A stretch of 31,748 nt of DNA from Chlamydiales bacterium (GTDB lineage Bacteria > Chlamydiota > Chlamydiia > Chlamydiales > JACRBE01), in contig JACRBE010000021.1 in NCBI GenBank assembly GCA_016213235.1, positions 1 through 31,748 on the forward strand, written 5' to 3'. Position numbers: made by a program. The first letter of the stretch is position 1, and each line of letters begins with the position of its first letter. Below are positions 3,001 through 9,000 of this stretch, one piece after another.

Positions 3001-6000
3001 CGATTAATTACTACAAAACGATCTCTTATTCCTATACCACAGCACTGTACTATTGATGACTTTTTTTATCGTTTAGAGTCTATAACACAAGAAGAAATAG
3101 ATAGCATTATTGAATCATCCATTGGAACTAGAGATGTGATAGATTTATTAAAGAAGATGTTGCAAGTAGATCCAATAAAAAGAATATCTGCCAAGGAAGC
3201 TCTATTTCATCCTTTTTTCACAGCCCCACCTGTATACCGTCCTCTGTTGATTGCTGTCTTAAAAAACAGGATTGACTATATTAGAACGCAAGAAAAGTAG
3301 CTGCTAGCTAAATAATTGTTGCATAACCTTTTTATGCCCAGATGAAAATGCTAGTTTTTCTAGCTGGAATAAGTCTATCCACTCATAACCGGGGTAGCTT
3401 GTCTGATGCTCTGCTTGAAATACCTTGGGAAATAAAGACACCTGATACTTAGTGTAGTAATGCACCACCTTTTTTAAGTCTTTTATGTAAATTGCTTTTA
3501 CAAATATTTCTTCTTCATTTTCCAAGTAAGGAAATTCCCATAAATCTGCCATTATTTGCCCAGGCGCGTTCTTTTTCACTAAAACTTTGTTTTCAAAAAA
3601 AATGCAAAAAACCACCCTGGATGCTTTAATTGTCTCATATTTTTTACTATTAACAGGAAATAACGCTTGTTCTTTTCTTTGATAAGCTAGGCAATCTTTT
3701 TGCAAAGGACATCGATAGCAGATGGGGGTTTTTTGGCAAACTAACGCCCCTAGCTCAATAAGAGCTTCCATTTCTATCCATGGAGCTTTGTCGCTTAGCA
3801 TCGTTTCTAATAGTTGTTGCAGATGCTTTTTTGTAGATGCTTTTGTAATATCTCTATTATCTCCCAGCAATCGGGTCAGGACCCTTAATACATTACCATC
3901 GATTGCTGCAGCTTTTTTATGACATGCAAAACTTAAGATAGCTCCAGCAGTATAAGGACCAATCCCCGGAACCTTCTCCAGATCTTCTCTATTATCTGGT
4001 ACGATGCCATAATGCTTATCTATGATATACTTAGCCGCAAGATGCAGGTTCCTTGCTCTGGAATAGTATCCAAGTCCCTCCCACGCCTTAATGACACTCT
4101 CTAGGGGAGCAGTTGCAAGTGTTTGTATATCAGGGAACGATACCATCCATCTTTCAAAATAATCGACTACAGCAACCGCTTTTGTTTGTTGCAGCATTAT
4201 TTCTGATACTAAAACTTTATAGGGAGAAACCCCTTCTCTCCATGGAAATTCTCTTTTATTCTTTAAAAACCAATCAACTAGATGATTAAAAAACATTATT
4301 TCTCTTTATATTTTTTTATATCTTACCACCTAGCAGTAAATAATTTAAACGAAATGATAAAAATGAACTTTACTCATTTTCAATGACTTAGCGAAGCGTA
4401 GGGCATTTGACATCTTATTTTTAAATTTGATACTAATTAAGTATAGATAATACAAAAAATAAAAAGTTAATTTATGGAAAATAACAATTCCGAAGATTTT
4501 GTTTACTTTATTGAAAGTGTTGAACAAGCATTGCCAGAACTTATAACCGGAATCAAAAGTTATAACTTTCATCAAATAGGAGTGCATAGAAACTTCTTTC
4601 TGAAAGAATTTGAGATCTTGAAAATGTTATCTAATTACTTACCTGAAAAATCACCGGAAAAAGCGCTTTGCAATAAAGTGATCAATCAATGGAAGTCCAT
4701 TGATGCAGAGCTTAGCAAAACTCCTCTTAACTTCCCAAAAGTTGAAAAAGACATCCTATTTCTTCAAACTCAACTAAATAAGCTGATTAGCTCCTCTGGA
4801 GGAAAAAAATGGAAGACCGCATAATTCCATCTTTTATTTCATCAGAAGAAATATCATTATTAAGAGAACTATTATCTCTTCTTGTGTGTGAAGAGTGCTT
4901 ATTAATGCAAGGACAAAAAGAAGAAAGAAAACTTCTTTGCAAAAAAAGATATGCCGTTAATCGAAAAATCAGATTTCTAAAAAATCAGCCCCATCAACTA
5001 ACTTTTTTTGATGAATTTGATACTGCATATTTACAAGGCATCTACGATGCTCTTGAAAAAGAAATTTTGCTGCAAAGAAAAAGAAATATCGCTTTATTAA
5101 AATATGGCGGCTTAGATACTCTCAAGAAAAATCCTGCAATAGCTCCTAAAGTAAATAAACCACGGCTATTGACTCTGGATCCTGATTTATACCATGACGC
5201 TTAAGTTAGAAGGGCTATTATATGGGCCTAATTTACAACACCTGGATCATATCGGCCCAATTTGTGCCATTCTTGGCATTCCATTAACTGTTACAGAAAA
5301 AGAATTACTAGAAATTGCTAAAGAGTATTACCCCGATTTAGATGTTCATTATGCATCCTATTCTACTATTGCAAAAGAGCTCTATGATCATTGCAACGCA
5401 ATTATTTCTTGCTTGCCAACTGCCATACTAAATGAGGTCTTTTTTCTACCCTCCTGTTTGAAGGCAAAAAAAATGACTTATATCTGGTGCCCTCACGGCA
5501 ATTCGGAAAAAGGATATGATTCTTATTTTACAGAGGTACTAGAAAAAGAGCGCATTATTCTTTGTTATGGTCCTAAGATAGTGCAAAAATTACACCATCA
5601 TCACGATTTATCAATACATCACCTCATAAAAACAGGAAATTACCGTTTTGAATATTATCAAAAGCAAAAAACTTTTTATGATCCGTTATTTCATGAAAAA
5701 ATAGGCCAGTTCTTAAAACAACCCCTGAATATGTTGTTTGCCCCTTCTTGGAAAGATCACGACAACAGCAATATGGTATTGGAAGAGCTGAAAAGTATTA
5801 TTTCTCAAAAACCACTGTCTTATAATCTTTTAATTAAATTACACCCAAATACAATCGTGAAATATGGAATACATATTGATTTGCTAAAAGAAGATTATGA
5901 TGATGTATTTTTTATTCATGATATTCCCAGTATTTATCCTATATTAAACATCACGGACATTTACGTGGGGACCCACTCCTCTATTGCGTATGATTTTCTC

Positions 6001-9000
6001 TATTTTAAAAAACCGATTATTTTTATTGATGATAAGGCCCCTTTTGCATCTACCATTTCATCAAGCGAATTAAACAAGCTAAAAACTCTTATTTTACATT
6101 TAACAAATAATACAGGCTCTTTAGTGGCACATAACATTTACTATGAACAGGCTTTTTTCAATGATGTAGCGCTAGATATGCTTAAAACAAACCTTTTTCA
6201 AGTATTATATGAACAATAAACAAGCGTTAAAAAATTGCTGTGGCATCTTATATGGAAATTATCCTCAATTAATCGATCACATCGCTCCCTTTTGCTGCAT
6301 CAATACAATTCCCCTTTTTGCAACAGAGCAAGATATTGTTAGCGCAATAGAAAAATACTATCCGCACACAAATGTCCACCTTGTTAGTTATGCTAACTTT
6401 CCTACCATCACACTTGGATTTGATGAAATCATCTCCTGCCACTGGACCTGTAATTTAAAACAAATCTATTTTCTTGCAGAAATATTATTAAAAAAAGAAA
6501 TATCAACCATCTGGCTACCTCATGGTATGTCTGACAAAGGCTTTAACCACTCTCTAAAGCAGCTTCTAAAAGATGAAAAAAAAGCATTTGTTTATGGATC
6601 TAAAATGAAGCAAGAGTTGTTTATAGAAAATGAGCACGTATCTTGTGTTGGCAATTTTCGATACAAGTATTTCAATGAACATGCATCTTTTTATCATCAA
6701 ACAACTCAGGCTCTATGGAAAATAGATAAGAAGAAGAAAAATATTTTATTTGCTCCTACATGGGTAGACGCCAATTATAAAGATGCTTTTTTCTCTGCCT
6801 GTGACACATTATGTAAAGAGCTAAGCCATGATTATCAATTGTGGATAAAATTGCATCCAAGAACAGAAAAAGAATATGAATATCATATTTTGCAATTAAA
6901 AGAGACTTATACCAACTGTATATATTTAGAAAATATCCCCTTTATTTATCCCATACTTCAATTTATTGATCTATATATCGGAGATTATTCCTCTATTGGA
7001 TATGATTTTTTACTATTTGATAGACCCATGATCTTTCTGGAATTTGATCCTAATGTAGCTAAAAACAATAAAGAAAGAGCTCTTCATCAATGTGGAGCTA
7101 CTCTACCCAGTGCAAATTCTCATTTAATCGGCCATATAGCGCAAGATGCTCTTTGCAACACCTCATCACATTTATCTTTAATCAAAAAAAACTTGTATCA
7201 ATATTCATATTCTTGAACGGGAGGAAGTACCATTACATTAGTAACGCTTTCTAAATATAAAATACTTGGCTGCACTTCCATTTGATAATAAAAACTTCCC
7301 TCCGACAGTGGCAATACCGTTTTTACACTACCAATAATAAGTCCTTCAGGAAAAACCCCATCCAACCCGGAAGTTAACAACAAATCACCTACTTGAAAAA
7401 AATTACTTTCATGCTTGTATTTGTTTAATATAGGATGAAAACCTATCCCCTTAAGAAAACTCTTCTTTACACTCCAAAGAGGTTGAGAGAAACCACTCAC
7501 CTCTCCTCTTGCAATCATTACATGATCTTGCTTTGTGTCTAGTTTGTTTTTATATCTATTCAACACTTGTTTTAACTCTTCTTCCTCTTCCGTAAAACGC
7601 TGCAGAGATTCTATTGCTGTCACAATCTCATCCTTCTGATAGCTACCTCGATGCGAGCACACAGAAATATGTAAATTCTCATCTGTTATCAGTCTTACCT
7701 TGGATCGCTTCAGAAAAACCTCTTCAACAACCCCTACTACTTTATCCCCAATTACAACAGGGCTGTTTTTCGCTATCACCGTTTGAGAAAGCCTTTTATT
7801 TTCCTCCTCACCTTTATTGATCCAAATAAAACTACCCCAACTAACAGGCTCCCGAAAAATCACCTTTGCTCTCACACTCTTACACAAATAAAAAAGACGC
7901 TTGATGATTAATTCTTCTTTTATTTTCCACTGTTTTTTATTTACGTTCACATCTAAGTTGTCTAATTGAACAACTAACTCTTCTAAAATAGACTGCTCTT
8001 TTAAGTAGTCTCCAATCTCTTTGATTTCACTCTTCAGCAAAAAATTCTCTGTCTTGAGGCTATCATATTCCTCTTTATCTACTTTCTCCTTGGGAAAAAG
8101 ATGAATCCACTGAAATAATTTCAGCGGTTGATTCATTAAATAAATTGTCGTATTTCTAAACGAATCGGTAATGGATATAGGTAAATTAAATAGAAGAAAT
8201 AAAGAGATGCCAAGAGAGAAATAAGAAGAAAATATAGCGCTTTTCAACCGCCAACCTCGATCATACTACGGATAACATAATCTAGATTATCCTGTGTCAA
8301 TCCCGATAGGTTTATTCTGCCATCCAGCGTCATGTAAATACCAAATTTTTCTCTTATTGATATTACTTCATCCTTAGAAAGGTCCGTAAAACAAAATAGC
8401 CCTTTTTTATTGATGAGATGAGAATAGTTTCTTTTTGCTTTTTTTGCTTTTAATCCATCCACAAAACGCTCGCGAATACTTGCAAGACGCTTGCGACTCT
8501 CTTTCAACTCCTCATTCCATAGAGCCATTAGTTCATCATCATGCAAAATGGTTTCTACAATCGCCACCCCATGCCTAGGGGGATTTGAATAAGTTGACCT
8601 TGCTATTTTCTTTAAATTTTGAAGTACCTTCACAGCCTCTTCTTCATTTTCTGTAAAAACATATAAAGCACCAACCCTCTCTCCATATAATCCAAATGTT
8701 TTAGAGTGAGAACATGCCACTAACATATCCACTTTTTCTTTAACAAACAGCCGAATGGAAAATACATCCTCTTCTATCCCATCACCAAACCCTTGATAAG
8801 CTAAATCAAAAAAAGCAATAAGCCTTCTCTCTTTCATGATGCCGCTGATCTCTTTCCATTGATCTTTTGTAAAATCAATACCTGTTGGATTATGACAACA
8901 TGCATGCAATATAACAATATTTCTAGGCTCCAACTTTTTTATATAATCGATAAATGCATCATATTTCATGGCATGCGTAGTATGATCATAATAGGGATAA

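What a model noticed while it worked through the whole genome (the two positions that open the first line are those of the whole stretch)
4474..7216. TagF-like alditol-phosphate transferases beside mreC: teichoic-acid-type polymer in a chlamydia
Two adjacent genes (g00008, g00009; 341 and 335 aa) encode TagF-fold CDP-alditol phosphotransferases, the enzyme type that builds wall teichoic acids and ribitol/glycerol-phosphate capsules, and the genome also holds a fused ribulose-5-phosphate reductase/CDP-ribitol pyrophosphorylase (g00424, C25 15415-16317). I read this as the machinery for a ribitol- or glycerol-phosphate polymer (or such a decoration of lipooligosaccharide or of the septal peptidoglycan) on the chlamydial envelope. 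New would be a teichoic-acid-like anionic glycopolymer in Chlamydiota, a phylum in which none is known, encoded in two thirds of its genomes.
Evidence so far: Pfam Glyphos_transf: g00008 175-278 (3.7e-12), g00009 163-281 (2.1e-18). AlphaFold2 model of g00009 from 20 aligned relatives: mean pLDDT 87.5, pTM 0.88. VIA-align on Foldseek's PDB hits: capsule polymerase multienzyme 8A0C_B Z 21.4 (rmsd 3.4, 302 aligned), wall teichoic acid polymerase TagF 3L7K Z 20.7 (297 aligned), 8QOY Z 18.6, S. aureus TarL with CDP-ribitol 8VA1 Z 17.9; UDP-GlcNAc 2-epimerases (same GT-B fold) follow at Z 17-18.8. Invariant in the 20 relatives: H105-G-x-S-D-K110, H216, A182-P-T-W185, D259-x-S-S-I-G-Y-D266. g00424: IspD 3-81 plus adh_short 97-267, 34.8% identical over 310 residues to H. 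influenzae Acs1/Bcs1 (E 8e-46); cut by the contig end. relatives.tsv: Glyphos_transf [...]
(Added by a program. Inside this text positions count along the whole contig: contig position 1 is position 1 of the stretch shown here. "Call 12" and the like, gene names such as g00115 and contig names such as C1 are that model's own, and its searches are not shown. The text may have been shortened before it was handed on; [...] marks where a part breaks off. The agent that wrote the report below was given it as the finding of a first reader that could run no searches.)

Follow-up and report, generated by a model that had tools for sequence, protein, structure and literature searches.

The report
Chlamydial ribitol-phosphate surface glycan enzymes
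Two neighbouring genes of an environmental chlamydia encode enzymes with the fold of teichoic-acid builders, which likely attach single sugar-alcohol-phosphate units to an outer-membrane sugar chain rather than build a cell-wall polymer, a predicted envelope trait of most sampled chlamydiae outside the small-genome pathogen family.

Summary
Confirmed: 5194-6219 and 6209-7216 encode intact TagF-fold proteins (best structural match: the ribitol-phosphate transferase domain of H. influenzae Bcs3, Z 21.7), with both catalytic histidines and the pyrophosphate-binding lysine. The family occurs in 184 of 250 Chlamydiota genomes, and in 0 of 29 of the small-genome family (likely Chlamydiaceae). It travels with two mutually exclusive cytidylyltransferases: a Bcs1-like fusion (90 of 92 carriers have the transferase; adjacent in two genomes) and a LicC-like enzyme (28 of 28; adjacent in six). 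This supports a CDP-activated donor, here likely CDP-ribitol. A wall teichoic acid is not supported: LCP ligase 0 of 34, TagA 3 of 34, Kps capsule anchor 1 weak of 34, and no polymerase domain. Heptosyltransferases, an undecaprenyl-priming transferase and glycosyltransferase operons point to an LPS-linked oligosaccharide. The mreC link holds in only some lineages. The two small upstream genes are not part of the system (one is a FlgN relic). Databases already name the family, and this scan noted it earlier in other chlamydial genomes. No chemistry is shown.

The parts
5194..6219 (+). TagF-family phosphotransferase, first copy (341 aa); PHGNSEK, GNYR, APSW, KLHP, SSIAYD motifs
   Evidence: Pfam Glyphos_transf 3.7e-12; 34% to the second copy; no transmembrane-length hydrophobic stretch
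6209..7216 (+). TagF-family phosphotransferase, second copy (335 aa); D23-H24, H105, S108, K110, R151, P183, H216, S261-S262
   Evidence: Pfam 2.1e-18; model pLDDT 91.3; best fold match the CroT domain of Bcs3, Z 21.7; P183 and H216 align with TarL P395/H433, and H216 with TagF H584
4809..5204 (+). Neighbour, not part of the system: FlgN-family relic overlapping the first transferase gene
   Evidence: 22 of 23 aligned family members hit Pfam FlgN weakly; the member in flagellated G001 lies between flgJ and flgK, FlgN 2.5e-16; kept beside mutY in loci without a transferase in G152, G234, G079
4474..4824 (+). Neighbour, not part of the system: narrowly distributed 116-aa ORF of unknown family
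   Evidence: 43% to the same position in same-genus G168; one other homologue found; no Pfam over cut-off
7198..8247 (-). Context: convergent mreC
   Evidence: Pfam MreC 1e-23; adjacency limited to some families

Best explanation
The two genes encode TagF-family enzymes that likely take ribitol-phosphate from CDP-ribitol, predicted to be made by the genome's fused reductase-cytidylyltransferase, and likely add it as one or two single units to an oligosaccharide that would end up on the lipopolysaccharide. Shown: fold, catalytic motifs, distribution, co-occurrence and gene adjacency with the donor synthases. Inferred from the known TagF/TarL/CroT mechanism: H105 deprotonates an acceptor hydroxyl, which attacks the beta-phosphorus of the CDP donor; K110 and H216 hold the pyrophosphate; CMP leaves. 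Inferred from gene content: the acceptor is the heptose-containing LPS core or an undecaprenyl-diphosphate-linked unit built with other glycosyltransferases. In other chlamydial families a LicC-like cytidylyltransferase likely supplies a different head group to the same enzyme family.
For: Fold: top three matches are all polyol-phosphate transferases, the best being the CDP-ribitol-using CroT domain. Active site: H105, K110, R151, P183 and H216 in 150 of 150 best hits; H/K(+5)/H is the triad that binds the pyrophosphate in CroT (H96, K101, H233; PMC10299916 passages). Donor link 1: fusion in 92 of 250 genomes, 90 of them transferase-positive, directly adjacent and co-directional in 2 of 20 fusion loci fetched (G040, G210). 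Donor link 2: LicC-like enzyme in 29 of 250; after dropping one weak hit (G199, 1e-34, transferase-negative), 28 of 28 have the transferase and 0 of 28 the fusion, and in family f6 the same 18 of 29 genomes have both; tail-to-tail neighbours in six genomes; its closest plasmid relative overlaps a CDP-glycerol glycerophosphotransferase gene. Shared address: mcsB is followed by the transferase in 13 of 20 loci and lies close upstream of the fusion in 14 of 20 loci. The fusion is extra to a stand-alone IspD in 6 of 10 genomes and kept in five genomes where IspF was not found. LicD cannot be its only consumer: 42 of 92 carriers lack LicD and 40 of those have the transferase. Acceptor side: GT9 heptosyltransferase family in 32 of 34 (0 of 2 in f4), Bac_transf priming transferase in 5 of 5 including this genome, Wzy_C in 20 of 34. 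The transferase sits inside glycosyltransferase operons in 5 of 5 f3/f2 loci, in G042 and in G040. Single-unit action: median length 352 aa, and polymerases carry an extra N-terminal domain (PMC10901376 passages).
Against: No substrate, product or acceptor was measured. 66 of 184 transferase-positive genomes have neither synthase by these queries; of 5 examined, 4 have a truncated cytidylyltransferase-only form without the reductase and 1 (G087) has no candidate. In this genome (81% complete) and in same-genus G168 the fusion is the only IspD-like gene while IspF is present, so it may also or only serve isoprenoid synthesis. The specificity position is Ser, neither the Gly of ribitol nor the Pro of glycerol transferases. 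The best NCBIfam hit of the first protein is the BFO_1060 family (1.3e-7), which are nonulosonic acid transferases (PMC5420450 passages). No Wzy_C, Wzx, LicD or Glyco_trans_1_2 partner was found in this genome. The LPS and priming genes also occur in transferase-negative genomes, so they show an available acceptor, not the acceptor. Genomes are kin, and the LicC-like profile was built from five transferase-linked copies. The match of H105 to the catalytic base rests on motif spacing, not on a printed residue alignment.
Confidence: 0.55

Rival explanations
1. The enzymes build a true teichoic-acid-like chain: one paralog primes and the other extends poly(ribitol phosphate), or they alternate with a sugar transferase to give a glycosyl-ribitol-phosphate repeat ligated to LPS as an O-chain.
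For: Two old paralog groups recur in tandem (quick tree); 111 of 184 genomes have two or more matches. A stand-alone CroT is part of the E. coli K18 capsule polymerase system (PMC10299916 passage). Fusion > transferase > GT > GT operon in G040. Wzy_C proteins in 20 of 34.
Against: No extra polymerase domain, and no longer fused form found (weak evidence). 73 of 184 genomes have one match, including same-genus G168. No Kps anchor. Three JGI labels of relatives read 'primase'.
Confidence: 0.17
2. They are phosphodiester-forming transferases, but here the donor is not CDP-ribitol (CDP-glycerol, CDP-arabitol or a CDP-choline-like donor), or the acceptor is a glycoprotein or lipid rather than LPS.
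For: The donor synthase differs by lineage. The donor loop differs too: F/Y at His+2 in 13 of 13 LicC-type copies, and Pro at His+3 in 3 of 6 f3 copies seen. Wzy_C also covers protein O-glycan ligases (recalled). A stand-alone HldC/TagD-fold cytidylyltransferase is present.
Against: That enzyme scores far better as the heptose adenylyltransferase domain (7e-44) than as TagD (2e-9). This genome has the fusion and no LicC-like gene. The FlgN-like neighbour that might suggest a secreted-protein target is independent of the transferases.
Confidence: 0.15
3. They are CMP-ulosonic acid (Kdo or nonulosonic acid) glycosyltransferases with a TagB-like fold that extend the LPS core.
For: Tannerella nonulosonic acid transferases carry a TagB-superfamily domain and an HP motif (PMC5420450 passages). 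BFO_1060 family is the best weak NCBIfam hit for the first protein and for two relatives. KdsB is present in this genome.
Against: A strong NeuB hit is missing in 16 of 25 transferase-positive genomes, this one included, and present in 6 of 9 negative ones. The N-terminal motif is His-Gly-x-Ser-Asp-Lys, not the acidic D/E-D/E-G motif described for those transferases. Co-occurrence and adjacency with two different CDP-donor synthases would be unexplained.
Confidence: 0.1
4. They make a wall teichoic acid attached to the chlamydial peptidoglycan ring, coupled to MreC.
For: Convergent mreC here and near most of 80 close relatives. The priming transferase gene lies directly upstream of an mreD-like gene in this and other genomes.
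Against: LCP ligase 0 of 34, TagA/WecG 3 of 34, and a single Glycos_transf_4 gene per genome in 5 of 5, presumably MraY. mreC is on the opposite strand and is not near the gene in 14 of 20 and 5 of 5 other loci.
Confidence: 0.03

Closest known systems
Haemophilus influenzae type b Bcs1 (CDP-ribitol synthase) plus the CroT domain of Bcs3
   Same: Best structural match over the whole CroT domain (Z 21.7); same His / Lys(+5) / His triad; partner with the same cytidylyltransferase-reductase architecture.
   Different: Stand-alone core with no phosphatase or ribosyltransferase attached; Ser instead of Gly at the polyol-selecting position; 16% identity; no Kps capsule anchor; extra invariant Asp-His near the N-terminus.
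Wall teichoic acid TagB/TarB/TarF (single-unit) and TagF/TarL (polymerases)
   Same: Fold, both histidines, APT and SS motifs; size like the single-unit enzymes.
   Different: No polymerase N-terminal domain; the Arg after APTW is not conserved; no TagA or LCP partner; no TagD recognised.
Ribitol-phosphate O-polysaccharide clusters with a Bcs1-like gene (Parabacteroides locus L199)
   Same: Same fused synthase (36% to this genome's fragment) beside Wzy and glycosyltransferase genes.
   Different: There the transferase is LicD-type; here it is a vertically conserved TagF-type family, and the genes are scattered among housekeeping loci.
Tannerella forsythia nonulosonic acid transferases (BFO_1060 family, NF046086)
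   Same: TagB-like domain, HP motif, weak profile match.
   Different: Score 31 against a cut-off of 200; histidine-based N-terminal motif; distribution does not follow NeuB.

Membership tests
TagF-like polyol-phosphate transferases (PF04464) | GT-B fold closest to TagF/CroT/TarL | tested here: met
   Z 21.7, 20.5, 19.3 for the top three, with epimerases close behind at 18.6; Foldseek top hits TagF; Pfam over cut-off
TagF-like polyol-phosphate transferases (PF04464) | Two invariant catalytic histidines and the lysine of the donor loop | tested here: met
   H105, K110, H216 in 150 of 150; H216 aligns with TagF H584 and TarL H433; H105 assigned by motif spacing against CroT H96/K101
TagF-like polyol-phosphate transferases (PF04464) | Polyol-selecting residue (Pro for glycerol, Gly or GAF for ribitol) | tested here: inconclusive
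   Ser in 149 of 150; Pro in some f3 copies; rule from PMC10299916 and PMC10901376
TagF-like polyol-phosphate transferases (PF04464) | Transfers polyol phosphate from a CDP-polyol, releasing CMP | not testable with these tools
   Needs an enzyme assay
TagF/TarL-type polymerases | Additional N-terminal domain before the GT-B core | tested here: not met
   The model is a bare core of 335 aa; family median 352 aa; criterion from PMC10901376
Wall teichoic acid pathway | LCP ligase to peptidoglycan | tested here: not met
   0 of 34 genomes; 7 of 14 control genomes positive
Wall teichoic acid pathway | TagO/TagA linkage-unit enzymes | tested here: not met
   TagA family 3 of 34, not in this genome; one Glycos_transf_4 gene in each of 5 genomes
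Group 2 (Kps) capsule | KpsS/KpsC Kdo-glycolipid anchor enzymes | tested here: not met
   1 weak hit in 34 genomes, none here; this genome is 81% complete
Group 2 (Kps) capsule | KpsM/T/E/D export | not tested
Bcs1-type CDP-ribitol synthase (partner on C25) | IspD/TarI domain fused to an SDR reductase, distinct from the MEP-pathway IspD | tested here: met
   Architecture; separate IspD in 6 of 10 relatives, though none found in this genome or G168
Bcs1-type CDP-ribitol synthase (partner on C25) | Product is CDP-ribitol | not testable with these tools
   Needs an assay; another alditol is not excluded
BFO_1060-type nonulosonic acid transferases | Profile score over cut-off, acidic D/E-D/E-G motif, linked CMP-nonulosonate pathway | tested here: not met
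   31 bits against 200; motif not among the invariant columns; no NeuB found here

The most novel reading that the evidence does not exclude
Chlamydiae ancestrally wear a teichoic-acid-like polyol-phosphate chain on their LPS, primed on undecaprenyl phosphate by a transferase encoded next to mreD. The head group has been swapped between lineages (ribitol by the Bcs1-like fusion; choline, glycerol or another group by a LicC-like enzyme, with a matching change in the donor loop), and the whole module was lost with the heptose core in the vertebrate-pathogenic family.
Probability: 0.2. Interest if true: 0.75.

Novelty: new variant of a known kind. Interest (0 to 1): 0.5.

Why it matters
Chlamydial LPS is known almost only from Chlamydiaceae, where it is a short Kdo-only structure (recalled). 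These data predict that most other chlamydiae have a heptose-containing, phosphodiester-decorated surface glycan, and they name the enzymes and the donors to assay. That bears on how amoebal and animal hosts see these bacteria and on what the pathogens gave up. The lineage-specific swap of donor synthase also offers a natural test of what the uncharacterised LicC-like partners of TagF-type enzymes make.

Tried and rejected
FlgN-like neighbour as a clue to protein glycosylation: rejected, it is a flagellar relic tied to mutY. TagD search: only HldC-like and NadD-like proteins in this genome. Fusion as merely the MEP IspD: rejected as a general explanation, left open for this genus. LicD as sole consumer: rejected. 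Search for longer fused forms: none among 3,740 candidates, weak evidence. Nearest non-chlamydial relatives were not resolved: the listed hits were all close full-length members, and plasmid hits were partial. The tree is the quick tree only; both window proteins are long branches and their placement is unsure. Promoter scan: 9 sites against 15.9 expected, uninformative. Sequencing runs: no RNA holder listed; contigs of run X1 show no insertions or deletions over the pieces laid, but X1 may be the source sample. No complex prediction was run, since no binding is claimed. Literature: searches listed no paper describing these enzymes or an alditol-phosphate glycan in chlamydiae; the library lacks most subscription papers, and no supplements were read, where pan-genome tables may list these genes. 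Passages of PMC10371091, PMC4083446, PMC2878342 and PMC5814848 gave nothing on environmental chlamydial LPS structure.
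Full report
Observation. The two genes are present and intact at 5194-6219 and 6209-7216, overlap each other, and meet a convergent mreC. Both pass the Pfam Glyphos_transf cut-off and are 34% identical to each other. A model of the second protein (pLDDT 91.3) matches best the first 354 residues of Bcs3 (Z 21.7), then TagF (20.5) and Cps3D (19.3); UDP-GlcNAc 2-epimerases follow at 18.6 and TarL at 18.3. Those residues of Bcs3 are CroT, its CDP-ribitol-using domain (PMC10299916 passages).

Active site. In the 150 best library hits H105, G106, K110, R151, P183 and H216 are present in all 150 and S108 in 149. P183 and H216 align with TarL P395 and H433, and H216 with TagF H584, residues described as cytidine-binding and catalytic (PMC10901376 section 9). 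H105 and K110 have the spacing of CroT H96 and K101, which with H233 hold the pyrophosphate; this assignment is by spacing. The residue that separates glycerol from ribitol users is Ser here, so sequence does not settle the polyol. The fold alone does not settle the chemistry either: Tannerella nonulosonic acid transferases carry a TagB-like domain (PMC5420450 passages), and their NCBIfam model is the best weak hit for the first protein.

Distribution. The family is in 184 of 250 scored Chlamydiota genomes (one more was not scored) and in 0 of 29 of family f4. I take f4 to be Chlamydiaceae from its genome sizes of 1.0-1.4 Mb; it is not named. All 82 chlamydial copies group apart from four outside TagF-like proteins in a quick tree, with two recurring paralog groups.

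Donor. The IspD-SDR fusion is in 92 of 250 genomes at E 1e-25 or better; 90 have the transferase, while 94 of 184 transferase genomes lack the fusion. Fetching loci from those lineages showed a LicC-like nucleotidyltransferase tail-to-tail with the transferase in G120, G144, G211 and G230 and in G228 and G038. It is in 29 of 250 genomes. Leaving out one weak hit (G199, transferase-negative), 28 of 28 have the transferase and none has the fusion; within family f6 the same 18 of 29 genomes carry both. The profile was built from five linked copies and the genomes are kin, so this is not a statistical test. Its best solved relatives are cytidylyltransferase-type enzymes including LicC, and its best plasmid relative overlaps a TagF-like gene. 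The fusion is directly adjacent to a transferase in 2 of 20 loci fetched. The slot after mcsB holds the transferase in 13 of 20 loci, and mcsB lies close upstream of the fusion in 14 of 20 loci, which suggests one ancestral operon. In this genome mcsB and the fusion end at contig edges of C22 and C25. All 13 LicC-type copies examined have Phe or Tyr at His+2 in the donor loop, where most others have Asn; this may be a single event. 66 genomes have neither synthase; 4 of 5 examined have a truncated form 46-48% identical to the fusion's first domain, and 1 has no candidate. The fusion is additional to a stand-alone IspD in 6 of 10 genomes and persists in five genomes where IspF was not found. 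In this genome and G168 it is the only IspD-like gene while IspF is present, so a double role is possible. LicD proteins occur in 99 of 251 genomes, not here; 42 fusion carriers lack them and 40 of those have the transferase. A strong NeuB is missing in 16 of 25 transferase-positive genomes and present in 6 of 9 negative ones, which argues against nonulosonic acids; CMP-Kdo remains available.

Acceptor. In a hand-picked panel of 34 genomes LCP ligases were found in 0, TagA in 3 and Capsule_synth in 1, weakly. GT9 heptosyltransferase-family genes were in 32, with 6 matches here (5 over cut-off) and none in the 2 f4 genomes, and an HldC-like gene is present. A Bac_transf priming transferase is in 5 of 5 genomes including this one, in 4 of 4 transferase-negative environmental genomes and not in the one f4 genome. 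Wzy_C hits occur in 20 of 34, not here and weakly in G168; Wzx in 2 of 5. In 4 of 4 f3 loci the order is GT4, transferase (one or two), then three further genes that are mostly glycosyltransferases by Pfam, and G001 and G040 have similar runs. A GT4 lies beyond mutY in 52 of 80 close loci. The simplest reading is an alditol-phosphate-bearing oligosaccharide on LPS. Which part of LPS, and whether the unit repeats, is inferred only.

Neighbours. The mreC adjacency is common among close relatives but absent in 14 of 20 and 5 of 5 more distant loci. 4809-5204 belongs to a family found in 94 of 250 genomes whose member in a flagellated genome is the canonical flgN; it follows mutY, not the transferases. 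4474-4824 is narrowly distributed.

Prior knowledge. Automatic labels already read 'CDP-glycerol glycerophosphotransferase' or 'teichoic acid glycerol-phosphate primase'. Seven literature searches listed no description in chlamydiae. Papers seen as passages: PMC5420450, PMC5974469, PMC10299916, PMC10371091, PMC4083446, PMC2878342, PMC5814848; PMC10901376 as passages and section 9; no supplements. The labels mcsA, HldC function, PglC/WbaP and the Kdo-only LPS of Chlamydiaceae are recalled. This scan reported the same family and fusion earlier in other chlamydial genomes; those notes are not independent support.

Verdict. A real, intact and ancestral chlamydial branch of a known enzyme family, very probably a CDP-dependent phosphotransferase, probably ribitol-specific in this lineage and probably decorating an LPS-linked glycan with single units. 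The teichoic-acid polymer of the title is a minority reading. New variant of a known kind; interest 0.5.

Noticed in passing
own genome C35:937-2096 (L226); also L225, L227, L228, L252-L254: The Bac_transf (PglC/WbaP-type) priming transferase gene lies directly upstream of an mreD-like gene; in this genome the run is a sugar-nucleotide dehydrogenase-like gene, a prenyltransferase-like gene, the transferase, mreD. Not found in the one f4 genome tested.
   Followed up: partly
window 4809-5204; L247:5982-6503: A FlgN chaperone relic is kept beside mutY in many chlamydial genomes; G001 holds it inside an intact flagellar gene cluster (flgI, flgJ, flgN, flgK, flgL, fliW).
   Followed up: yes
own genome C26, C42, C23, C41, C21; C51:18120: Five or six GT9 heptosyltransferase-family genes and a stand-alone HldC-like gene after lon; up to 13 GT9 matches in relatives, none in f4. 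Suggests ADP-heptose synthesis in non-Chlamydiaceae.
   Followed up: partly
own genome C22:4396-7728 (L045): rmlD- and rmlB-like genes run into kdsB, so a deoxy-sugar donor for surface glycans is likely available.
   Followed up: no
L220/L268 (G099), L219/L269 (G077), G166: LicD-family genes lie within about 4 kb of Wzy_C genes in three genomes, a second possible route for alditol phosphate onto an O-unit.
   Followed up: partly
L170-L173 (G221, G077, G166, G202): The fusion has lost its reductase half in several lineages, leaving a TarI-like gene, three of four still beside mcsB or frr.
   Followed up: partly
G055, G235, G115, G215, G152, G234, G188 and others: Full-length NeuB-family synthases in 15 of 34 genomes, several in long open frames of 510-600 aa; nonulosonic acid synthesis in these chlamydiae was not examined.
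   Followed up: no
window 2011-3300: Eukaryote-like Ser/Thr protein kinase (Pkinase 1.4e-39) convergent with mutY, at a place where many relatives have a GT4 gene.
   Followed up: no
window 9823-11694: 623-aa ORF with no Pfam match between the aminotransferase gene and the sigma-70 gene.
   Followed up: no
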